This document shows positions 6,220 to 17,625 of a stretch of DNA of 28,411 bases, piece by piece (position 1 is the stretch's first letter; the number at the start of each line of letters is the position of its first letter). The stretch lies in UHGV virus genome UHGV-0191955; one strand, written 5' to 3'. The notes beneath the pieces are model-generated. The model was not told where the DNA came from, did not search any database, and worked only from the letters and a program-made list of their open reading frames with translations. The stretch comes from a virus. The position numbers and the translations under genes were made by a program.

Positions 6220-6804
6220 ATGAAAGATTGGATTATTGCTAATAAAGAATGGTTATTTAGTGGTATAGGCGTTTCTGTTATAGGTTCGATTTATGCTTTC
6301 TTTCGGTGGATACACAAAGGGGCGGTCAAAGATAAACCGCAAATGCAAGTGCAAAATCAAGTTGTTAATGTGAATGTTGGAATGCAAGCCAAAAACCAAG
6401 AACAACCTGTGAAAAATCATTATATAGATATTAAATCGAAAGTGCGCATATTATTTATTGACGATGAGCGGTTTAATATGATCAATATCTTGAAAAAGGC
6501 TGGCTGGAAAAATATTGAATACAAAAAGGATCTTTCCGATTTAGATGATAACGCTGTATTATCGGCAAATGTCATATTTGTAGATATCAATGGAGTTGGA
6601 TGTAGTTTGTTTAGGAACCAAGGATTAGGTTTAGCGGCTGCGATTAAAAACAAACATAAAGATAAACGTGTCATAATTTACTCGGCTGAACCTAATGGCG
6701 ATCGATTTGATAATGCTTTACGTCAGGTCGATGCTTGTTTGCCTAAAAATGCTGAACCTATAGAATTTATGAATCTGATAGAAGAATACGCCGATAAGTT
6801 ATGA
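6220..6804 (+). CDS. membrane-anchored receiver (REC) domain protein with no output domain
   Basis: AT-rich gene. N-terminal hydrophobic helix 'WLFSGIGVSVIGSIYAFFRWI', Q/N-rich linker, then receiver-domain landmarks in the right order: 'VRILFIDDE' (acidic pair), 'VIFVDINGVG' (candidate phospho-acceptor Asp), 'RVIIYSAEP' (Ser/Thr position), 'CLPKNAEP' (conserved Lys). Stop overlaps the next start (ATGA). Confidence 0.7.
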   Translation: MKDWIIANKEWLFSGIGVSVIGSIYAFFRWIHKGAVKDKPQMQVQNQVVNVNVGMQAKNQEQPVKNHYIDIKSKVRILFIDDERFNMINILKKAGWKNIEYKKDLSDLDDNAVLSANVIFVDINGVGCSLFRNQGLGLAAAIKNKHKDKRVIIYSAEPNGDRFDNALRQVDACLPKNAEPIEFMNLIEEYADKL

Positions 6805-7838
6805 ATTTAAAAATTGTTTCTCAACAAGGTGAATTAATCTGCGATTCATTGCCATATTATGAGTGCACTCATTGTATTTTGACTAATCAAAGTCATGGAT
6901 ATGCCAATATTAAATGCCAGAGAGACAGGGAAAATAAAAGAATAGCGTATCATAAAAATGAGCATGGAGAATTGTTTGCATGTAGTCGAAATGCTAAAAC
7001 CACGAAATTATTTAAGGACGAAGTGAATTCGACTGTGTATTGCTTGAAATCATTAATTGCATTATCTGGCGAAGTTCGGCAATATACAATGGCGGAAACA
7101 TCTAATAGGGTAAACCGTATTATACACAATCTTAAAAGTATTAATGCGCATGCCATGCAAGAGTTATATGCATTGGTTCCGCAGGAGCAATTAATCAAAA
7201 ATGTTAGGGAGAATTCCAAAATTGTAGAAAGTGCGATAAAAAAGGATGTTCGTCAAGCGGCTTTAACGTTCTTTCGTATGGCAAAGTTCAATCTTAGTAT
7301 AAAAGCTGAATTTTCTATATATGAGAAACTTTTACAAGGTGGAGAAAAATTGAAACTTGAAAAAAGGAATCATAATATTCGAGATGTTATAATGATTGTT
7401 TTATACATGTTTTTCAATGATTTTAATGAAAAGGATGTATATATTGATATTGAAGAATATTATGAAAAAGTATATGTAGATTTTGAGTCAGTCCAAGTTG
7501 CGATTTATCATATAATTGAGAATGCTGCTAAATATATCGCGCCTAAAACGAATGCCAATATTACGTTTAAGATAGAGAAGCATACTCAATATATCATATT
7601 TGCAATGACCAGTCTATATATTAATCAAGACGAAGAATTTGAGATATTTAATGAAGGTTATTCTGGTATTGTGGCAAAGCAACTGAAAAAAGCAGGGAAA
7701 GGCATTGGAATGTATCGGGCAAAACGTTTGATTGAGTTGAATAATGGAACATTAACAGTTGAAGCAGGAGAGGCAATCAAAATAAATGGGATAGATTATG
7801 CAAATAATAAATTTATCATTGCTTTACCTATAAGTTAG
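6801..7838 (+). CDS. cytoplasmic histidine kinase with Cys-rich N-terminal region
   Basis: AT-rich gene. H-box-like 'RIIHNLKSINAHAM', N-box 'IYHIIENAAKYIAP', G2 box 'GKGIGMYRAKRLIELNNGTLTVEAG' typical of an HATPase_c fold. No transmembrane segment. N-terminal 'CDSLPYYECTHC...C' cluster could bind metal. Confidence 0.7.
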   Translation: MNLKIVSQQGELICDSLPYYECTHCILTNQSHGYANIKCQRDRENKRIAYHKNEHGELFACSRNAKTTKLFKDEVNSTVYCLKSLIALSGEVRQYTMAETSNRVNRIIHNLKSINAHAMQELYALVPQEQLIKNVRENSKIVESAIKKDVRQAALTFFRMAKFNLSIKAEFSIYEKLLQGGEKLKLEKRNHNIRDVIMIVLYMFFNDFNEKDVYIDIEEYYEKVYVDFESVQVAIYHIIENAAKYIAPKTNANITFKIEKHTQYIIFAMTSLYINQDEEFEIFNEGYSGIVAKQLKKAGKGIGMYRAKRLIELNNGTLTVEAGEAIKINGIDYANNKFIIALPIS

Positions 7839-7901: not shown

Positions 7902-9119
7902 GTGAAGTGGTTTCCTTTTTTGCATAGGGGCGAGCGGCGCGACATTTCATCGGCCGAATTCGAGGCAGCAGTGAATAAAGTCATTACCGCCGACACAGTC
8001 GCCGATGCCACGCACCAGCCGTATATCACCGAGGAGGGTGCATTGAACCTTACAGCGGTTTGGGCTTGCGTGCGAATTCTCTCAGAGACGGTCGGAACGC
8101 TCCCGTTGCATCTCTATCGCCGTACTGCTCGCGGTCGCGAGCGACAGTACGACCACCTCTGCCACCGACTCGTACAGGCTCCCAACTCCTATTCCACTCG
8201 TTTCGACCTAATGCACCATCTGATGGTTTCGTGCGCTTTGTGGGGCAACGGCTATGTCCACATCTTTCGGGACAAATGCTACCGCCCTGTTCGGCTGAAG
8301 TTCATTCATCCTGCCCGTATCGAGCCGCTCCTTACCGACAACGACGAACTCTTCTACCGATCGGACACGGGCGAACTGCTTTCGAACGAAGACGTCATCC
8401 ACCTGCGCGGGCTCTCGACTAACGGCTACAAGGGTAAAAGTCCGATCGCCGTCCATCGCGACAACCTCGCACTCTCTGTCTCTGCGCAACTCTACGGTAA
8501 ACGGTTCTTCGATCAGGGCGGCAATATGTCGGGCGTCTTCAAATATCCCTCGACGCTCAAGCCCGAAGCCTACCAGCGTCTCAAGAAAGACCTCATCGCC
8601 CAATCGGTCGGTTTGCACAACGCCCACGTCCCGCTGCTGTTGGAGGGCGGTATGACCTACGAACGCATCTCCATTCCTCCCGAAGATGCCCAATTCATCG
8701 CTACGCGCAAGTTCCAAAAGACCGAAATCGCCACCATCTACGGCATCCCGCCGCATATGATCGCCGACTTGGAACGTGCCACGAACAACAACATCGAGCA
8801 TCAGGGTATGGAGTTCGTGCAGTATTGCCTGATGCCGTACCTCGTCCGCATCGAGGAGGAGTTCAACCGTAAACTGCTCCGCGAGGACGAGTTCGGGGAG
8901 TATTACTTCCTCTTCGGCCTGAACGGACTGCTGCGCGGCGATGCCAAGACCCGCTCGGAATACTACAAGAATATGAATATCGTCGGCGCGATGTCTGCCA
9001 ACGAGATCCGCTCCCTCGAAGATATGAACTCCTACGATGGAGGCGACGAATACTTCGTACAAATGAACATGCAGCCGGTAACGACTGCCATAAAACCTGA
9101 AACGAATGGAACCGAATAA
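7902..9119 (+). CDS. phage portal protein (HK97 family)
   Basis: 405 aa, GTG start. N-terminal 'LNLTAVWACVRILSETVGTLPLHLYRR' is portal-like. Lies between terminase and prohead protease. Confidence 0.85.
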   Translation: MKWFPFLHRGERRDISSAEFEAAVNKVITADTVADATHQPYITEEGALNLTAVWACVRILSETVGTLPLHLYRRTARGRERQYDHLCHRLVQAPNSYSTRFDLMHHLMVSCALWGNGYVHIFRDKCYRPVRLKFIHPARIEPLLTDNDELFYRSDTGELLSNEDVIHLRGLSTNGYKGKSPIAVHRDNLALSVSAQLYGKRFFDQGGNMSGVFKYPSTLKPEAYQRLKKDLIAQSVGLHNAHVPLLLEGGMTYERISIPPEDAQFIATRKFQKTEIATIYGIPPHMIADLERATNNNIEHQGMEFVQYCLMPYLVRIEEEFNRKLLREDEFGEYYFLFGLNGLLRGDAKTRSEYYKNMNIVGAMSANEIRSLEDMNSYDGGDEYFVQMNMQPVTTAIKPETNGTE

Positions 9120-9747
9120 TGAAATAGAGATCCGGAGCCTTATCGGCGATCTGCATATCGAGAGCCGCGAGGAGGGAACCGTCAGCCGGACGATCGTCGG
9201 CTATGCCGCGAAGTTCGAGAGTTGGAGCGACCCTATTATGGGGTGGTTCCGGGAGAAGATCGCGCGGGGCGCATTCGACGGGTGCGACCTGTCGGACGTC
9301 ATCATGTGCTTCAACCACAATACCGATTCGATCCTCGCACGCACGACGAGCGGTACGCTGCGATTGGAGGTGGACGACGTAGGTCTGCGCTTCGCGTTCG
9401 AGGCTCCGAATACGACTTCGGGGAGCGATATGCTGGAGTTGGTACGCCGGGGCGACGTCTCGAAATGTTCGTTTCGCTTCGGCGTCGAGCAGGACGAGTG
9501 GCAGTATGCCGACGAGCAGAACGGTCTCGCGATGGACGAGCGGACGATACTCCGGTTCTCGCGTGTGGTAGATGTGTCGCTCGTGGTATTTCCTGCCTAT
9601 CCCGAAACCGAAGCCTCGGTGCGGTATCTCGAAGAGCGGAAAGCCGAGTGGTTATCATCAAATAAAACGGAAGCATCGAATCATTCTTATAAAATAAAAT
9701 CTCGAAACCGTTTGTGTGATTTTCTTAAAGTTGCAAATAGGCACTAA
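9106..9747 (+). CDS. HK97-family prohead protease
   Basis: 213 aa. 'VGYAAKFESWSD...GAFDG' and 'KCSFRFGV' resemble prohead (S78-type) proteases. Follows the portal and overlaps its 3' end. Confidence 0.8.
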   Translation: MEPNNEIEIRSLIGDLHIESREEGTVSRTIVGYAAKFESWSDPIMGWFREKIARGAFDGCDLSDVIMCFNHNTDSILARTTSGTLRLEVDDVGLRFAFEAPNTTSGSDMLELVRRGDVSKCSFRFGVEQDEWQYADEQNGLAMDERTILRFSRVVDVSLVVFPAYPETEASVRYLEERKAEWLSSNKTEASNHSYKIKSRNRLCDFLKVANRH

Positions 9748-9766
9748 CCGAAATTTCCATATCTTT

Positions 9767-9796
9767 GTAACAGCCGATGATTTCATCGGCTGTTAC
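9767..9796 (+). terminator. perfect 14-bp stem hairpin (GTAACAGCCGATGA-TT-TCATCGGCTGTTAC), candidate terminator
   Basis: Read directly from the sequence. Located just after the protease stop and before the AT-rich R-M island. Confidence 0.5.
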
Positions 9797-9826
9797 TTGT
9801 TATACAAATTAAGTAAATAAAGCATA

Positions 9827-10405
9827 ATGAAACTACGAATTCCAAACTCGGAAGTTCAAGAACTTCTAACCGACAAGTCTTTTGAGTATCCTAAATACGC
9901 GACTCAAATTATGAACTTGGCGAATCAAAATGCACAAGGTACTCGTCCGAATATTGTAGGTCAAATGAGCGACCTGATTCAAGAATTCGGAGCGGGATCG
10001 ATGATTGAATGGGATGCTTGGTATAAGAACGGTCACCCGGAAGCGATTAAGACTGCAACCGAACGAGTATATCGGATGATTGAATTATTTAAAGAGAGTA
10101 TTCAGACCATCGATAAGGATATGGTCCGAAAATGGATCGAAGAGCTTGTTGTTGTCAAAACTTATTGCGGATTAAAATTCCAAGAGGCCATTCTCCGTAA
10201 AATTGCAGAAGAAAAGCAGTCGGACTACAGATTGGCGACCCCAGAAGAAGAAGCACAAGGTATAGATGGATTCATTGGAAATTCCCCGGTTAGTATCAAG
10301 CCGATCACGTATCGGATTATGAATGAACTACCGGAGCACATCGATGTGCCGATTATTTACTATGACAAGAAGAAATCAGAAATAGTGGTTGAATATAATT
10401 TTTGA
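9827..10405 (+). CDS. candidate restriction endonuclease, N-terminal fragment
   Basis: AT-rich ORF convergent with the methyltransferase. Ends at a TGA placed in frame by a T5 run (10399-10403). No catalytic motif recognised, so the nuclease call is by context only. Confidence 0.35.
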   Translation: MKLRIPNSEVQELLTDKSFEYPKYATQIMNLANQNAQGTRPNIVGQMSDLIQEFGAGSMIEWDAWYKNGHPEAIKTATERVYRMIELFKESIQTIDKDMVRKWIEELVVVKTYCGLKFQEAILRKIAEEKQSDYRLATPEEEAQGIDGFIGNSPVSIKPITYRIMNELPEHIDVPIIYYDKKKSEIVVEYNF

Positions 10406-10409
10406 TATT

Positions 10410-11030
10410 ATGCCATATACTGGAGGACCATTGAATACATTAAATGGGAAAATGGGTATTTCTGCTCCGGAGAATAGTGTACCTGTTATGAAATTAATTC
10501 GCATACATCATCCTAAAAGTAAAGAGGAATTAGTCGAATTAATAAAATGGCATTCTGAAAACAAGTGTGAATGCGGTATTATTAGTAGAGGAACGGTTGA
10601 ACAATTTGGGAAAAATTTATATGAAGCTCAAAAAGCATTTTGGGGAGAATATAAATTTTCATTAGCAATATGCATCCAATGGGAATATGATTTATTTGTT
10701 TTACAATCATTAAAAGGTTCTTTGGTTGAAGATGCTGCTATTAGGACTTTAGAGACCCAATTAGAGCCTGAATATGCTTTTTCAGAAGCAACCGGTTATA
10801 TGGATGAAGAATTGCGAATTGATATTATTTGCAAATATAACAATAGCATTATTGCCGGCATTCAGGTCAAACCTTTAACATTTTTAATGATGAGACGAGA
10901 AATTATTACTTATAATGCTATGGCTAATCAAAAATGGGATAAACCTGTATATTATTTATATTATGACGAAAATGAAAATTTCGTAAATATTGAAGAAGTA
11001 AAGTCTCATTTAAAATCATCGATTCTTTAA
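10410..11030 (+). CDS. candidate restriction endonuclease, C-terminal fragment
   Basis: Begins 4 nt after the previous stop. Removing one T from the T5 run fuses both ORFs into a single ~399-aa frame. Its stop overlaps the methyltransferase stop on the opposite strand. Confidence 0.35.
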   Translation: MPYTGGPLNTLNGKMGISAPENSVPVMKLIRIHHPKSKEELVELIKWHSENKCECGIISRGTVEQFGKNLYEAQKAFWGEYKFSLAICIQWEYDLFVLQSLKGSLVEDAAIRTLETQLEPEYAFSEATGYMDEELRIDIICKYNNSIIAGIQVKPLTFLMMRREIITYNAMANQKWDKPVYYLYYDENENFVNIEEVKSHLKSSIL

Positions 11031-12172
11031 AATGTTAATGCAATCTGCGTTCGGGAAGGAATAGAAATAATACGCTTTCTATTCCCTACTTTTATTTCAG
11101 CAGTGACCGGAATAGTGTCCGCATATTCAGCAGTAATCATGTGATTGTTCCCTCTTATTGCAGATAAATAGACGAACCGCATATCTGTTTCTTGTGAAGT
11201 CATGACCGGCATCTGGAGATGCTCGTTGAAATGTTTGATCTCTTTATTTTGCGTTCGTTGCGAAACGAATTCTTTATGTGCTGCTATTCGATTAGCAATA
11301 ACTTCGTTCATTTGGTCAACCGATGATGAATGAATATTATCGGCTATAATATCTATAAACTTATCATCAATTTCATAACCAATACTATTGCGATTGCTCA
11401 TGATAGATGCAATCGTAGTTGTACCGGTTCCTAAAAAAGGATCCATTACCGTATCTCCTTGCAACGAATACATATTGATTAGACGGTATGGAACTTCCAA
11501 TGGATAGGCTGCACTCCTGTCTCGACTTTCTGCTGATATTTTTTGTTTGGTACCTTTTATATTGTCCCACAAATCGGAAAACCACACATTGCGTTCCTCC
11601 CAAAAGAACGAACTCTCACGGCGTTTCTGTTTGTCTATTGCAGATTTGAATTCGCGTTTACCTCCTTTGCGAAAAATCAAAATCCATTCGTGTTCCAATG
11701 TTACATATGCTCCTGCAGGAAGCATTCCGGACCCCATAAATTTATTTGGAGCATTCGTTTGCTTCCTCCAAATAATGTTTGGAAGATTTACATACCCGTG
11801 AGCGGTGAAATAGTTAATTATACGGGAATGATTGGAGTATAAAGCAAAATTGCCATTGAATGTTCGCGTCGCATCACCGACATTGATACAGACGATTCCA
11901 CCCGGGACAAGGACACGTGTCACCTCATCCCATACTTTATCCAGCTCTTGATGCATTAATTCAAAAGCCGCATCCGGCTGGTTTTCATCAAGGGCATTTG
12001 CAATACAAGGATTTTGTTTGCTTAATATCTCATCCCACATTTGAATCATGGGATATGGCGGAGATGTAACGACTAACTCGACCGAGTTGTCATTAATTTC
12101 TTTCATCTGTTGGGCAGCCCCAGTATATATGCTATGCGTTGTCTTCATAATTTCAAAGCAAAGATAATTCAT
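11027..12172 (-). CDS. DNA methyltransferase, beta-class N4-cytosine/N6-adenine type
   Basis: Motif IV 'VVTSPPYP' near the N-terminus and AdoMet-binding motif I 'VMDPFLGTGTT' near the C-terminus, the circular permutation typical of beta-class amino-methyltransferases. AT-rich. Alternative ATG at 12148. Confidence 0.88.
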   Translation of the reverse strand: MNYLCFEIMKTTHSIYTGAAQQMKEINDNSVELVVTSPPYPMIQMWDEILSKQNPCIANALDENQPDAAFELMHQELDKVWDEVTRVLVPGGIVCINVGDATRTFNGNFALYSNHSRIINYFTAHGYVNLPNIIWRKQTNAPNKFMGSGMLPAGAYVTLEHEWILIFRKGGKREFKSAIDKQKRRESSFFWEERNVWFSDLWDNIKGTKQKISAESRDRSAAYPLEVPYRLINMYSLQGDTVMDPFLGTGTTTIASIMSNRNSIGYEIDDKFIDIIADNIHSSSVDQMNEVIANRIAAHKEFVSQRTQNKEIKHFNEHLQMPVMTSQETDMRFVYLSAIRGNNHMITAEYADTIPVTAEIKVGNRKRIISIPSRTQIALTF

Positions 12173-12284
12173 TTCCTCCTATAATCCTCCATTATTCAAC
12201 TTTATTCTAAAATTGCGACAAAGTTTCCTTTTAGAGGCTGTTCGGTGGATTAAGTTTGCTCCCGAAGAATCAATAACGAGATTT

Positions 12285-14839: not shown

Positions 14840-15192
14840 CGGATTTCAAGAAGCAGCTGATCGTGCTTTTGGAGCGTGAGATTCCAGAATTGGCGGATAG
14901 GATCCAAGCCGGGGCGGTCGATGCCCGGACGCCTGCGCCTTTCGCCGCGTTCTCCGTTCCGGAGGAGACGCCCGTAAGGACGTTGCACGGCATCGCCGGC
15001 TACCGGACGATGTTCGAGGTCGCGGTCTACGACAGCAAGTTCTCCGGTGCGGAACACCTCAAGCGTCGGGCGATCGCCGCCTTGGAGGGTGCGGAGTTCG
15101 ACGGCAAACGCAGCCGCTTCGTCTCTTCGGCGACGGAATACTACGCGGACTACGACCTGCACGGTGCGACGATGTCATTCAGAATCATATAA
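14836..15192 (+). CDS. hypothetical tail-completion protein
   Basis: 118-aa ORF in the conserved slot between gp10-like and tail tube genes. Function by position only. Confidence 0.45.
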   Translation: MTDFKKQLIVLLEREIPELADRIQAGAVDARTPAPFAAFSVPEETPVRTLHGIAGYRTMFEVAVYDSKFSGAEHLKRRAIAALEGAEFDGKRSRFVSSATEYYADYDLHGATMSFRII

Positions 15193-15209
15193 CTACAAAA
15201 CGATAACTT

Positions 15210-15650
15210 ATGCCTGAAACTTACGGAAACAAACAGGTCGTCCAAGGCGAGGACATCATCCTCTTGGTGGACGATAAGACGACGCTCCACGCCACGACGC
15301 ACACGCTGAAGGTGGACTTGGAGATGAAGGAGCTGCGCACGAAGGATACCGACGGCAAGGAGAAGTGGCCGGGCGATGTCTCGTGGTCGGTGGACGGCGA
15401 CGGGCTGGTGGTCATCGACGATTCGATCGAGAACAGCCATACCGCCGAGGAGGTTCTCGACCTGGTACTTAGGAAAAAACTCGTCGATGTGGTCGTCAAG
15501 TCGCCGCTCACGGGACTCGCGAAGATGTACACGGGCAAAGCCTACATCACGACCTTTTCGCTCTCGACGCCTGCGGGCGACAACGCCTCTTACAGTTATT
15601 CGCTTACCGGCAGCGGCAACCTGACGCCGGCAGACAAACCTGAATCCTGA
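15210..15650 (+). CDS. putative major tail (tube) protein
   Basis: 146 aa, acidic, beta-rich-looking. Position immediately upstream of the chaperone frameshift pair. Confidence 0.5.
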   Translation: MPETYGNKQVVQGEDIILLVDDKTTLHATTHTLKVDLEMKELRTKDTDGKEKWPGDVSWSVDGDGLVVIDDSIENSHTAEEVLDLVLRKKLVDVVVKSPLTGLAKMYTGKAYITTFSLSTPAGDNASYSYSLTGSGNLTPADKPES

Positions 15651-16842: not shown

Positions 16843-17625
16843 ATGGCAAGATTGAAAACTCCGATTTCATACTATGGCGGCAAGCAGATGCTTTTGAAGC
16901 ATATCCTGCCGCTGATTCCCGAACATACGCTCTACACGGAAGCCTTCTGCGGCGGCTGCGCCGTGCTGTTCGCCAAGCCGCCCGCGCAGTGCGAAGTCAT
17001 CAACGACACGAACACCGAATTGGTGAACTTCTACCGCGTGGCGCAGACCCAGTATGCGGCACTCAAGGCGATGATCGACGCGACGCTCCACAGCCGCGAG
17101 ATACACGCGCACGCACGGCATATCAACGAGCATCCGTCGTTCTTCACGCCCGTCGAGCGGGCTTGGGCTGTATGGGTCTGCACGAAGTTGGGCTTCGCCT
17201 CGATGATCGACGGAACGTTCGGCTACGACCGCAGCGGTACGACGACGCTGAAACTCCGCAATGCGAAAGAGGCCTTCACCGAGGAGTTGTGCGGACGCCT
17301 CGGCCGCGTTACGGTCGAGTGCGAGGACGGCATCGATGTCATCCGCCGCTACGACTGTCCCGAGGCGTTCCACTTCGTCGATCCGCCCTATGTCGGCAGC
17401 GACTGCGGACACTACAACGGTACGTTCGACGAGGAGGATTTTTCGAGGCTGCTCGACACGCTTGCAACGGTCGAAGGGAAGTTCATGCTCACGATGTTTC
17501 CGCACGAGAAGATCGAACGCCTCGCCGCCCGGCACGGCTGGACGATCCATCGGCTCGACCGCACCATCACCGCCTCGAAAGTTTCCCGCCGCCGGCAGGA
17601 GGAGTGGATTACGACGAACTACTGA
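16843..17625 (+). CDS. Dam-like N6-adenine DNA methyltransferase (D12 class)
   Basis: 'ISYYGGK' N-terminal motif, 'EAFCGGCAV' AdoMet motif and catalytic 'DPPY' in 'FVDPPYVGS'. No adjacent nuclease. Confidence 0.85.
   Translation: MARLKTPISYYGGKQMLLKHILPLIPEHTLYTEAFCGGCAVLFAKPPAQCEVINDTNTELVNFYRVAQTQYAALKAMIDATLHSREIHAHARHINEHPSFFTPVERAWAVWVCTKLGFASMIDGTFGYDRSGTTTLKLRNAKEAFTEELCGRLGRVTVECEDGIDVIRRYDCPEAFHFVDPPYVGSDCGHYNGTFDEEDFSRLLDTLATVEGKFMLTMFPHEKIERLAARHGWTIHRLDRTITASKVSRRRQEEWITTNY

What the first reader, a model, noticed from the sequence alone, without database searches (positions are those of the whole stretch)
9750..12200. Prophage-borne restriction-modification cassette in the head module, with the nuclease gene split at a T5 tract
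A second AT-rich island sits between the prohead protease and major capsid genes. It carries a beta-class SPPY methyltransferase on the minus strand, convergent with two plus-strand ORFs whose stop overlaps the methyltransferase stop (TTTAA at 11027-11030). The two plus-strand ORFs are 4 nt apart, and removing one T from the run at 10399-10403 joins them into one ~399-aa frame. So the partner gene is either a frameshift-inactivated nuclease (leaving an active orphan methylase), a sequencing indel, or genuinely two subunits. The nuclease assignment is by context only. An SPPY motif is more typical of N4-cytosine than N6-adenine enzymes, but that is not decisive.
Basis: partly seen in the sequence, partly recalled or inferred. 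Interest (0 to 1): 0.55.

Follow-up and report, generated by a model that had tools for sequence, protein, structure and literature searches.

The report
Prophage restriction cassette with two nucleases
The "split" nuclease is really two complete, separately conserved restriction-nuclease genes that share one protective methylase, forming an intact CTAG-type restriction-modification cassette carried as cargo in the head-gene region of a gut Alistipes prophage; the two-nuclease layout is unusual, but it is not a broken gene.

Summary
The sequence features are real: an AT-rich island, a minus-strand SPPY methyltransferase, and two plus-strand ORFs 4 nt apart at a T5 run. The frameshift reading is wrong.

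- **ORF1 (R1, 9827-10405)** is a full-length MjaI-family restriction endonuclease.
- **ORF2 (R2, 10410-11030)** is a second, very divergent MjaI-family nuclease with a large family of stand-alone ~203-aa homologues.
- **The junction** is identical in six independent sequences. A related phage has T4 at this spot and the same two genes.
- **Homologues** at 55-67% identity in Bacteroidota chromosomes keep separate genes, with varying stop codons, spacers and frame relations.
- **No R1-R2 fusion** turned up anywhere.

R1 and the methyltransferase are 52-53% identical to the pair on plasmid pFZ1. That pair is the characterised MthZI system (CTAG, m4C).

Nearly identical methylases serve R1 alone, R2 alone, R1+R2, or R1 plus a third paralogue. 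The nucleases therefore look autonomous and isospecific rather than obligate subunits. R2 is a gene-sized module: sister phages carry a small unrelated gene in exactly its place.

The cassette sits in a cargo hotspot between the protease and capsid genes. The phage itself has no CTAG site.

Verdict: an intact system, and an architectural variant of a known kind. Moderate interest.

The parts
9651..12200 (.). Whole low-GC cargo island between the prohead protease core and the capsid promoter region
   Evidence: GC profile. Homology to sister phages with an empty site or other cargo stops at about 9642-9651 and resumes at about 12197-12247.
9651..9747 (+). Low-GC 3' tail of the protease gene (last ~32 codons), the left edge of the exchanged segment
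   Evidence: GC 0.30 against 0.59 for the rest of the gene. The C-terminal tail differs according to cargo type among relatives.
9760..9767 (+). TATCTTTG, a Bacteroidetes-type -7 promoter box candidate for the R1-R2 operon
   Evidence: Pattern match. It is conserved (TATCTTTG or TATATTTG) directly next to the palindrome in all six cassette-bearing lineages. Its function is inferred.
9767..9796 (.). Perfect 14+14 nt palindrome (GTAACAGCCGATGA TT TCATCGGCTGTTAC): an operator-like or 5'-UTR hairpin, or a weak terminator
   Evidence: It is found only in phages with this cassette. The stem is kept by compensatory changes in L021, L023 and L049.
9827..10405 (+). R1: full-length MjaI/MthZI-family type II restriction endonuclease (192 aa)
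   Evidence: - Pfam RE_MjaI 219 bits, covering 1-164 of 164 profile positions.
- PADLOC REase_II 220 bits.
- 52% identical to the pFZ1 nuclease.
- 2977 homologues found; the best 120 listed are nearly all about 192-208 aa.
- dN/dS 0.05.
10399..10403 (+). T5 run: the last base of AAT (Asn), TTT (Phe) and the first base of the TGA stop of R1. It is not a lesion. It is also the left breakpoint of the R2 module swap.
   Evidence: - Identical in six sequences, the window and five independent assemblies.
- L049 has AAC TTT TGA with the same gene pair.
- Homology to L046 and L035 ends at 10403.
10410..11030 (+). R2: second, highly divergent MjaI-family PD-(D/E)XK nuclease (206 aa); a swappable module
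   Evidence: - Pfam RE_MjaI 24.6 bits, above the 22.7 cutoff.
- 510 homologues found; 109 of the 120 listed are 200-206 aa (range 183-241), with a conserved N-terminus from residue 1.
- Invariant E92, D138, Q152, K154.
- dN/dS 0.08-0.13.
- GC3 0.21, against 0.40 for R1.
- Replaced by a 124-aa gene in L046, L035 and L023.
11027..12148 (-). M: beta-class SPPY N4/N6 DNA methyltransferase (373 aa), orthologue of M.MthZI (CTAG)
   Evidence: - PF01555 134 bits.
- PADLOC MTase_II 495 bits.
- 53% identity over 329 aa to the pFZ1 methylase.
- Nearest solved structure 2zie, followed by N4-cytosine methyltransferases.
- Stop codon overlaps the R2 stop (TTAA, 11027-11030).
12159..12166 (-). TATCTTTG -7 box candidate for M, 11 nt upstream of ATG 12148
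   Evidence: TTATCTTTG is conserved 6-14 nt upstream of the M start in all lineages. This favours the 373-aa start over the 381-aa ORF.
12251..12258 (+). TAAGTTTG -7 box candidate for the major capsid gene. It belongs to the phage backbone, just right of the cargo slot.
   Evidence: GATTAAGTTTG is conserved upstream of the capsid ATG in relatives with an empty site, with this cassette, or with other cargo.

Best explanation
This is an intact type II restriction-modification cassette of the MthZI/MjaI family, with predicted target CTAG protected by N4-methylcytosine. It is carried as cargo by a temperate HK97-like Alistipes prophage.

**Components.** The cassette has one methyltransferase (M) and two separate, paralogous but very divergent MjaI-family nucleases, R1 and R2. 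R1 and R2 are transcribed together from a promoter just upstream of R1. M is transcribed convergently from its own promoter.

**How the nucleases relate.** R1 and R2 are most likely autonomous enzymes. Each can work with this methylase on its own, presumably as a homodimer on a palindromic site, and both are held in check by the same methylation. R2 is a gene-sized module sitting in a slot between the R1 stop and the M stop. Other cassettes fill that slot with a small unrelated gene, with a third MjaI paralogue, or with nothing.

**Role in the phage.** The cassette occupies a cargo hotspot between the protease gene and the capsid gene's own promoter, which is why it is tolerated inside the head module. 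In a lysogen it should restrict incoming CTAG-bearing DNA and stabilise the prophage. The phage genome has no CTAG, so it is immune to both nucleases whether or not it is methylated.

**Shown:** gene integrity, family membership, orthology to the pFZ1 pair, modularity, and site absence.

**Inferred:** CTAG specificity here, activity of R2, independence of the two nucleases, and the promoters.
For: **Not a frameshift**
- Junction DNA is identical in six sequences, the window and five independent assemblies.
- The T4 variant L049 has the same two genes. Stops TGA/TAG/TAA, spacers of 1-256 nt and all three frame relations occur among homologues.
- Bacteroidota chromosomal loci have separate R1 (193 aa), R2 (203-204 aa) and a convergent M.
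- No two-domain fusion exists among 285 clusters.

**Family and specificity**
- R1 matches Pfam RE_MjaI at 219 bits over the full profile; R2 scores 24.6 bits, above the cutoff.
- R1 is 52% and M 53% identical to the only R-M pair on plasmid pFZ1, with the same convergent geometry.
- MthZI, MjaI and BfaI methylases are reported as beta-class SPPY m4C CTAG enzymes (PMC5867850, PMC11033074, PMC7708080).
- MjaI alone is active when cloned (PMC2615612).

**R2 looks like a real nuclease**
- Invariant E...D...QxK residues.
- dN/dS 0.08-0.13.

**Autonomy**
- 11 loci have R2 plus an orthologous M and no R1, with no R1 remnant in 10 of them.
- 24 loci have R1 plus M and no R2.
- M proteins 85-98% identical serve different architectures. 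The same R2+M occurs with or without R1, and the same R1+M with or without R2.

**Module swap**
- Homology to L046 and L035 breaks exactly at 10403/10404 and 11033/11034.
- The same swap is seen between L021 and L023.
- R2 GC3 is 0.21, against 0.40 for R1 and 0.37 for M.

**Hotspot**
- Sister phages have an empty site, or XhoI-, PstI-, Bpu10I- or EcoRII-type R-M systems, AbiE, NERD or DUF2971 proteins at the same position.
- A conserved capsid -7 box lies just downstream.

**Site absence**
- CTAG occurs 0 times in 28.4 kb, against 21.9 expected.
Against: - No biochemical or methylome data exist for this cassette. CTAG specificity rests on about 52-53% identity to a characterised system.
- R2's relation to the family is weak by sequence: 22% identity to R1, hhalign probability 8%.
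- R2 has Q where the canonical motif has D/E (QxK); R1 has S (SxK). Activity is therefore not guaranteed.
- The R1 structural model is poor (pTM 0.52) and its fold search is inconclusive.
- Tight R1-R2 spacing (1-18 nt in most loci) is also what a heteromeric enzyme would show. Heteromers could form even if each protein can act alone.
- No benefit of carrying two isospecific nucleases has been demonstrated.
- CTAG depletion is seen in the whole phage family and around all the loci examined, so it does not by itself identify this cassette's target.
- The chromosomal homologues have an HTH controller gene that this cassette lacks. Regulation here is unknown.
Confidence: 0.7

Rival explanations
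1. R1 and R2 are two subunits of one heteromeric restriction enzyme, either type IIT-like as in BbvCI and Bpu10I or an alpha2beta2 enzyme like BslI. Both would be needed for double-strand cleavage in this cassette.
For: - The two genes are adjacent, co-directional and usually 1-18 nt apart in many diverged loci.
- Both keep putative catalytic residues and both are under purifying selection.
- Heteromeric type II enzymes are known (PMC4081073).
Against: - Each nuclease occurs alone with an orthologous methylase at 72-98% identity.
- R1+M works as a pair in the characterised MthZI and MjaI systems (PMC2615612).
- Sister phages replace R2 with an unrelated small gene while keeping R1 and M.
- The gene order is reversed in L080.
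- No R1-R2 fusion proteins exist.
- There is a single methylase and a palindromic family target, whereas the asymmetric type IIT systems have two methylases.
Confidence: 0.15
2. R2 is not an active restriction enzyme. It could be a degenerate or repurposed MjaI-like paralogue, for example a DNA-binding regulator, a decoy, or a modulator of R1 activity.
For: - R2 has a non-canonical QxK in place of (D/E)xK.
- Its match to RE_MjaI is only marginal, and its PADLOC REase hit is weak at 16.5 bits.
- The slot it occupies can also hold a small non-nuclease gene.
- This cassette has no controller protein.
Against: - R2 plus an orthologous M forms a complete two-gene convergent system in 11 genomes with no other nuclease nearby.
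- A methylase-R2 fusion occurs in two MAGs.
- E92, D138, Q152 and K154 are invariant across the family.
- The fold matches restriction enzymes of the BsaWI/NgoMIV group, which from my own knowledge also use a variant SxK-type motif.
- R1 itself has SxK and belongs to an enzyme family that is active.
Confidence: 0.1
3. Programmed +1 ribosomal frameshifting at UUU UGA, an RF2-like geometry, produces some R1-R2 fusion protein in this phage lineage.
For: A +1 slip of tRNA-Phe on U UUU U GA would read GAU AUU AUG and continue into R2. The 4-nt spacer and the +1 frame relation are kept in the three phage lineages: the window, L021 and L049.
Against: - Any Phe UUU codon followed by a stop codon has this geometry.
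- Outside the phage lineage the spacer and frame relation vary, with all three frames seen and spacers up to 256 nt.
- The same R1 3' end precedes an unrelated gene in L046.
- No stimulatory element was identified.
- No natural fusions were found.
Confidence: 0.03
4. One reading: a single ~399-aa nuclease gene was inactivated by a 1-nt insertion in a T run, or by a sequencing indel, leaving an orphan methylase.
For: Deleting one T does join the two frames.
Against: - Both ORFs are full-length members of separate families whose termini match the ORF ends.
- The junction is identical in independent assemblies.
- The T4 variant has the same two genes.
- Homologues are always separate, and no ~399-aa relative exists.
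- dN/dS is well below 1 in both genes.
Confidence: 0.01

Closest known systems
MthZI restriction-modification system of Methanothermobacter plasmid pFZ1 (CTAG, m4C), with its relatives MjaI, MaeI and BfaI
   Same: - R1 is 52% and M 53% identical to the pFZ1 pair.
- The convergent R-then-M layout with overlapping 3' ends is the same.
- The methylase is a beta-class SPPY enzyme of about 355-373 aa (PMC5867850).
   Different: - pFZ1 has one nuclease; this cassette has a second, very divergent paralogue (R2, 19% identical to R.MthZI) inserted between R1 and M.
- The host is a bacterial prophage rather than an archaeal plasmid.
- Specificity has not been measured here.
Chromosomal C-R1-R2-M loci of Bacteroidota (e.g. 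Mucilaginibacter angelicae JBHLTS010000018, Paludibacter OY782858)
   Same: The same three genes occur in the same order and orientation, at 55-67% identity, with overlapping R2 and M stops.
   Different: - Those loci start with an HTH_3 controller gene overlapping R1. The phage cassette has none; it has a conserved palindrome next to a -7 box instead.
- None of these systems has been characterised experimentally, as far as my literature searches found.
Heteromeric type II enzymes: BbvCI and Bpu10I (type IIT), BslI (alpha2beta2)
   Same: They also have two adjacent nuclease genes of the same fold in one R-M operon (PMC4081073).
   Different: - In those systems both subunits are required. The asymmetric ones have two methylases.
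- Here each nuclease is found alone with the same methylase and the predicted site is palindromic.
Prophage and satellite hotspots of antiviral systems (P2/P4 hotspots, PMC9122126), and phage morons
   Same: A fixed position flanked by conserved core genes carries alternative defence cargo in related phages: four other R-M types, AbiE, NERD, DUF2971, or nothing.
   Different: - The hotspot lies inside the head morphogenesis module, between the prohead protease and the major capsid gene, upstream of a conserved capsid promoter box.
- The phage family is an Alistipes (Bacteroidota) siphovirus-like prophage.
Alternative gene cassettes at one R-M locus (DpnI/DpnII in Streptococcus pneumoniae; hrgA replacing hpyIIIR in Helicobacter pylori). 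Recalled from my own knowledge, not tested here.
   Same: Gene-sized replacement occurs within an otherwise conserved R-M locus.
   Different: Here the replaced unit is an extra nuclease between a retained R and a retained M. The alternatives are R2, a third paralogue, a small phrog_2113-like gene, or nothing.

Membership tests
Type II R-M system of the MjaI/MthZI (CTAG) family | Nuclease with the RE_MjaI (PF09568) domain | tested here: met
   R1 scores 219 bits with full profile coverage. R2 scores 24.6 bits against a cutoff of 22.7. R1 is 52% identical to the pFZ1 nuclease.
Type II R-M system of the MjaI/MthZI (CTAG) family | Adjacent beta-class N4-cytosine methyltransferase (SPPY motif before FxGxG) orthologous to M.MthZI or M.MjaI | tested here: met
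   PF01555 match, with SPPY at residues ~29-32 of the 373-aa protein and DPFLGTGTT later in the sequence. 53% identity over 329 aa to the pFZ1 methylase. Literature description in PMC5867850.
Type II R-M system of the MjaI/MthZI (CTAG) family | Cleavage at C^TAG and protection by m4C at CTAG | not testable with these tools
   Only indirect evidence is available: orthology and complete absence of CTAG from the phage, which is a family-wide trait.
Heteromeric (type IIT-like) restriction enzyme | Two different subunits, both required, always encoded together | tested here: not met
   By comparative proxy: R1+M and R2+M occur separately with methylases 72-98% identical. R2 is replaced in sister phages. 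There are no fusions. A biochemical test was not possible.
Heteromeric (type IIT-like) restriction enzyme | Asymmetric target served by two methyltransferases or a two-domain methylase | tested here: not met
   There is one single-domain methylase in the island. The family target is the palindrome CTAG.
Frameshifted pseudogene with orphan methylase | Intact orthologues are single ORFs spanning both halves, the halves lack independent termini, and selection is relaxed | tested here: not met
   There are no ~399-aa orthologues. The termini match the family termini. dN/dS is 0.05-0.13.
C-protein-controlled R-M system | Small HTH controller gene upstream of, and co-transcribed with, the nuclease gene | tested here: not met
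   Only 79 nt lie between the protease stop and the R1 start, with no ORF there. Controller genes are present in the chromosomal homologues L006 and L007.
Prophage defence/cargo hotspot | The same position between conserved core genes holds alternative unrelated cargo, or is empty, in related phages | tested here: met
   About 40 related viral loci were examined. The site is empty in L022, L031, L043, L047 and L048. Five R-M types, AbiE, NERD and DUF2971 occur at the site in others.
Integrated prophage | Integrase gene, phage structural module, and bacterial flanking genes on long contigs | tested here: met
   Contigs carrying the element reach 484 kb. Integrase genes are present. A Glyco_hydro_2 gene lies beyond the right-end integrase. 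An identical-length protease is annotated in Alistipes.

The most novel reading that the evidence does not exclude
MjaI-family CTAG systems may form a previously undescribed 'nuclease-stacking' platform. One conserved m4C methylase is paired with a hot-swappable slot between the convergent R and M genes. That slot holds one to three highly diverged paralogous nucleases (R1, R1', R2, r3) or a small phrog_2113-type protein.

Under this reading, stacking is adaptive. It could defeat nuclease-specific anti-restriction proteins or base modifications, or work through mixed oligomers.

In this phage family the stacked cassette would be one weapon in warfare between sibling prophages. The phage genome has purged the prototype target sites of every R-M family that circulates at its own hotspot: CTAG, CTCGAG, CTGCAG and CCWGG.
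Probability: 0.3. Interest if true: 0.6.

Novelty: new variant of a known kind. Interest (0 to 1): 0.4.

Why it matters
**For annotation.** A 4-nt gap at a homopolymer between two short ORFs looked like a broken gene but is a genuine two-gene arrangement. The methylase should not be called an orphan, and the nucleases should not be merged or flagged as pseudogenes.

**For restriction-modification biology.** About half of the sampled R1 systems with a convergent orthologous methylase carry an extra paralogous nuclease, and three loci carry three nucleases. Near-identical methylases serve different nuclease sets. This is a natural experiment on isospecific but structurally diverged nucleases, and possibly a source of new CTAG-cutting enzymes.

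**For gut phage biology.**
- It defines a defence-cargo hotspot inside the head module of a widespread Alistipes prophage family.
- It suggests why the hotspot is tolerated: the capsid gene has its own conserved promoter box.
- It shows extreme avoidance of the target sites of the R-M families that these phages themselves spread.

Tried and rejected
1. **Population frameshift variants of R1.** Cluster members of 134 and 164 aa suggested truncated R1 alleles. The DNA of those contigs is identical to the window over 9740-10480, so these are only different start-codon choices by gene callers.
2. **Profile-profile comparison of the R1 and R2 families.** It gave only 8% probability (E 0.004), because both alignments are shallow. 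Homology rests on the Pfam hits, the catalytic motifs falling in register, and the fold.
3. **R1 structure model.** It was too poor (pTM 0.52) for a meaningful fold search. Only weak Hjc and ThaI-type hits appeared.
4. **Sequence search of solved structures with R1.** It found nothing.
5. **CTAG depletion around R2 loci as a test of R2 specificity.** CTAG is the most depleted 4-mer palindrome in every architecture class (O/E 0.2-0.34), so the test does not discriminate.
6. **Annotated phage and plasmid collections.** There was no DNA match for the island in phages and no R2 match in plasmids. R1 did hit pFZ1, which proved useful.
7. **Literature searches.** Searches for two-nuclease MjaI or BfaI systems found no description. 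The original MthZI paper (PMC334282) is not held.
8. **Small middle gene of the L046-type cassette.** It has no Pfam, PADLOC or PDB match, only phrog_2113 of unknown function.
9. **Host CTAG content.** Only 5.4 kb of flanking DNA could be reached (1 site against 3.4 expected), too little to judge.


Full report
**1. What is in the sequence.** The window carries an HK97-type head module: portal (7902-9119), Peptidase_S78 prohead protease (9106-9747) and major capsid protein (ATG 12285). Between protease and capsid, GC drops from about 0.57-0.63 to 0.30-0.43. Three ORFs fill the island:
- R1, 9827-10405, plus strand, 192 aa.
- R2, ATG 10410-11030, plus strand, 206 aa.
- M, 11027-12148 or 12172, minus strand, 373 or 381 aa.

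R1 ends ...AAT TTT TGA, which creates the T5 run at 10399-10403. Four bases later R2 starts, in the +1 frame relative to R1. The R2 and M stop codons overlap on TTAA (11027-11030).

**2. The two ORFs are two genes, not one broken gene.** R1 matches Pfam RE_MjaI over the whole profile (219 bits, 1-164 of 164). R2 matches the same family weakly but above the curated cutoff (24.6 against 22.7 bits). The two are only about 22% identical over 106 residues.

Each has its own large family:
- R1 has 2977 relatives; the 120 best listed are nearly all about 192-208 aa.
- R2 has 510 relatives; 109 of the 120 listed are 200-206 aa (range 183-241).
- The R2 family is conserved from residue 1 (MxYTGGxLNxLNGK), and the R1 family ends where R1 ends.

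Further evidence against a frameshift:
- The exact R1 protein occurs in 324 blocks of the assembly collection, always followed by the 206-aa and 373-aa genes.
- The DNA of 9740-10480 is identical in the window and five independent assemblies.
- In sister phage L049 the Asn codon is AAC, so the run is T4, yet the same two genes are present. L021 uses a TAG stop.
- In diverged loci the R1 stop is TGA, TAG or TAA, the spacer is 1-256 nt, and all three frame relations occur.
- A search of 1.84 billion representative proteins with an R2 profile found 285 clusters and no protein with two MjaI domains.
- Between phage lineages dN/dS is 0.05 for R1 and 0.08-0.13 for R2, similar to the capsid and protease genes.

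**3. What family it belongs to, and the likely target.** A tblastn search of R1 against annotated plasmids hit only Methanothermobacter plasmid pFZ1 and two near-identical plasmids. pFZ1 carries a single R-M pair, convergent with overlapping ends. R1 is 52% identical to its nuclease. M is 53% identical to its 355-aa methylase over 329 residues, E 2e-128.

- From my own knowledge, pFZ1 is the plasmid of strain Z-245, which encodes MthZI.
- The papers held describe M.MthZI as an experimentally characterised m4C CTAG methylase located next to its nuclease on a plasmid.
- They describe M.MjaI and M.BfaI as beta-class SPPY m4C CTAG enzymes of 303-364 aa (PMC5867850, PMC7708080, PMC11033074).
- MjaI alone is active when cloned (PMC2615612).
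- PADLOC calls R1 a type II REase (220 bits) and M a type II MTase (495 bits).

The nearest solved structure to M is the Thermus putative methylase 2zie, followed by N4-cytosine methyltransferases.

**4. R2 looks like a working nuclease.**
- The R2 family has invariant E92, D138, Q152 and K154.
- In the AlphaFold model (pLDDT 81.6, pTM 0.76) these fall on a helix, at the start of a strand, and on the next strand. That is the PD-(D/E)XK layout.
- R1 has the equivalent E105, D147, S156 and K158.
- The R1 model was poor and its fold search uninformative.

**5. Two autonomous nucleases rather than two subunits.** I fetched 49 genome loci through R2 and 80 metagenome loci through R1, and classified neighbours with family HMMs. 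Among the 61 loci with a methylase orthologous to M, the counts were as follows. They are not de-replicated, and sampling is biased by the queries.

| Architecture | Loci |
|---|---|
| R1-R2-M | 14 |
| R1-M, directly convergent | 12 |
| R1-[~120-aa gene]-M | 12 |
| R1-[r3]-M | 12 |
| R2-M without R1 | 11 |

- r3 is a 250-280-aa protein that also passes the RE_MjaI threshold at 30-32 bits.
- Three loci carry three nucleases in tandem, R1-R1'-r3 (L167, L171, L174).
- L080 has the order R2-R1-M.
- Both R1 and R2 also occur downstream of a different ~430-aa methylase. Two MAGs encode that methylase fused to R2.
- Ten of the 11 R2-M loci have no trace of R1, and R1-only loci have no trace of R2.

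Methylases that are nearly identical serve different nuclease sets:
- L066 (R2 only) against L072 (R1+R2): M 88% and R2 87% identical.
- L065 against L124: M 85% and R2 89% identical.
- L119 (R1+R2) against L120 (R1 plus small gene): M 98% and R1 99% identical.

Methylases that similar almost certainly share specificity. Each nuclease must therefore be kept harmless by the same methylation, and each can be gained or lost without change in the others. This argues for independent, isospecific (or subset-specific) enzymes. It argues against an obligate heteromer, although mixed oligomers cannot be excluded without biochemistry.

**6. R2 is a gene-sized swappable module.**
- Sister phages L046 and L035 are about 93-94% identical to the window on both sides. 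Homology stops at 10403, the first base of the R1 stop at the end of the T5 run, and resumes at 11034, just inside the M 3' end.
- In between they carry a 124-aa gene instead of R2.
- The same exchange separates L021 (R2) from L023 (a 113-127-aa homologue of that small gene) in a lineage about 73% identical to the window.
- The small protein recurs in the '~120-aa gene' class of loci. It matches only phrog_2113, of unknown function.
- R2 is compositionally distinct even within the island: GC3 is 0.21, against 0.40 for R1, 0.37 for M and 0.80 for the capsid gene.

**7. Why a cassette can sit in the head module.** Forty or so related viral contigs show the protease-capsid junction to be a cargo hotspot.

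| Cargo at the junction | Loci |
|---|---|
| Empty (about 90 nt between the genes) | L022, L031, L043, L047, L048 |
| XhoI-type R-M | L015, L042 |
| PstI/BsuBI-type R-M | L016, L044 |
| Bpu10I-like nuclease plus m5C methylase | L032 |
| EcoRII-type R-M plus Vsr | L036 |
| AbiE toxin-antitoxin | L014, L019, L020, L049 |
| NERD protein | L025, L049 |
| DUF2971 protein | L050 |

- A Bacteroidetes-type -7 box (TAAGTTTG, 12251-12258) lies about 27 nt upstream of the capsid ATG. It is conserved in relatives with any cargo or none. The slot appears to lie at a transcription-unit boundary.
- Within the cassette, TATCTTTG boxes are conserved upstream of R1 (9760-9767) and 11 nt upstream of the 373-aa start of M (12159-12166, minus strand).
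- Directly abutting the R1 box is a perfect 14+14 palindrome (9767-9796). It is found only in cassette-bearing phages and keeps its stem through compensatory changes.
- Chromosomal homologues instead begin with an HTH controller gene, which the phage cassette lacks.

The promoter and operator roles are inferences from position and conservation.

**8. Host, lifestyle and site avoidance.**
- The element is integrated in contigs of up to 484 kb. It has integrase genes and is followed by a glycoside hydrolase gene.
- A protease of the same 90%-identity cluster is annotated in Alistipes. GenBank already names both nucleases 'MjaI restriction endonuclease' in a Caudoviricetes MAG.
- The 28.4-kb window contains no CTAG at all. 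A maximal-order Markov model expects 21.9, giving a Poisson probability of about 3e-10. Dinucleotide shuffles gave 54 ± 7 matches counted on both strands.
- Sister phages are equally CTAG-poor whether or not they carry the cassette. Avoidance therefore predates this cassette and does not on its own prove its specificity.
- It does mean that the phage is intrinsically immune to CTAG cutters. The methylase would be needed only for the host chromosome.

**9. Assessment.** The 'split nuclease with orphan methylase' interpretation is not. The system is an intact member of a known R-M family in a known kind of genomic setting. Its layout is unusual: two (elsewhere up to three) highly diverged paralogous nucleases share one methylase, in a modular slot. 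I did not find this layout described in the searchable literature. I rate it a new variant of a known kind, with moderate interest. The main open question is what stacking isospecific nucleases achieves.

Noticed in passing
window 6220-7838: The first AT-rich island, between the terminase and portal genes, encodes two proteins that match the PADLOC candidate defence system PDC-M43 A and B (222 and 363 bits). The second protein has a weak HATPase_c hit. In sister prophage L001 the same slot holds a 210-aa protein plus an HTH_3/Peptidase_M78 protein instead. This is a second cargo hotspot.
   Followed up: partly
whole window; sister loci L015, L016, L036: Besides CTAG (0 against 21.9 expected), the phage strongly avoids three other sites:
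- CTCGAG: 1 against 18.8, the most depleted of all 64 six-base palindromes.
- CTGCAG: 2 against 11.1, rank 3.
- CCWGG: 4 against 19.3.

These are the prototype targets of the XhoI-, PstI- and EcoRII-type systems that sister phages carry at the same hotspot. This suggests restriction between sibling prophages. GGCC, AGCT and CATG are also depleted.
   Followed up: partly
L046 4322-4696; L023 4392-4733; L114, L120, L123, L137, L138: A conserved ~113-124-aa protein occupies the slot between R1 and M in place of R2, in sister phages and in many metagenomic R1-M loci. It has a helix-turn-helix-like N-terminal half as judged by eye. It has no Pfam, PADLOC or PDB match, only phrog_2113 of unknown function. 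It might be a regulator that replaces the missing controller protein.
   Followed up: partly
L127 4591-5343; L140 5216-6058; L171 4628-6026; L167; L174: A third class of MjaI-family paralogue (r3, 250-280 aa, RE_MjaI 30-32 bits) sits between R1 and M in 12 metagenome loci. Three loci have three nucleases in tandem, R1-R1'-r3, ahead of one methylase.
   Followed up: partly
L092 1125-2990; L094 3741-5606: A 621-aa ORF fuses a ~430-aa-type N6_N4 methylase to an R2-type nuclease, in two MAGs from one study. It is either a natural single-chain R-M enzyme or an assembly frameshift. Unfused M(430)-R2 and M(430)-R1 pairs are common.
   Followed up: partly
window 9767-9796 and equivalents in L035, L021, L023: The central loop of the conserved palindrome is flipped between close relatives: GATGATTTCATC in the window and L046 against GATGAAATCATC in L035, and GGATATTC in L021 against GAATATCC in L023. 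It looks as though the hairpin tip inverts.
   Followed up: no
window 16843-17625: A Dam-like methyltransferase (MethyltransfD12; PADLOC MTase_II 116 bits) sits in the tail-gene region with no adjacent nuclease. GATC is not depleted in the phage (160 against 177 expected). It is probably an orphan, anti-restriction-type methylase.
   Followed up: no
L001 15353-16517, compared with window ~15190-15210: Some otherwise near-identical prophages carry an AbiEii/DUF6922 toxin-antitoxin pair inserted between the head-completion genes and the major tail gene. The window lacks it. This is a third variable slot in the structural module.
   Followed up: no
window 9651-9747: The last ~32 codons of the protease gene are low-GC (0.30) and co-vary with the type of cargo downstream. 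Recombination that swaps cargo evidently also swaps the protease C-terminal tail.
   Followed up: partly
cluster of R2 (P0141 and P0137; P0147): A minority of contigs carry R2 variants split into 160-aa and 46-aa pieces, or with an altered C-terminus. Unlike the R1 short calls, these may be real frameshift alleles. They were not examined at the DNA level.
   Followed up: no
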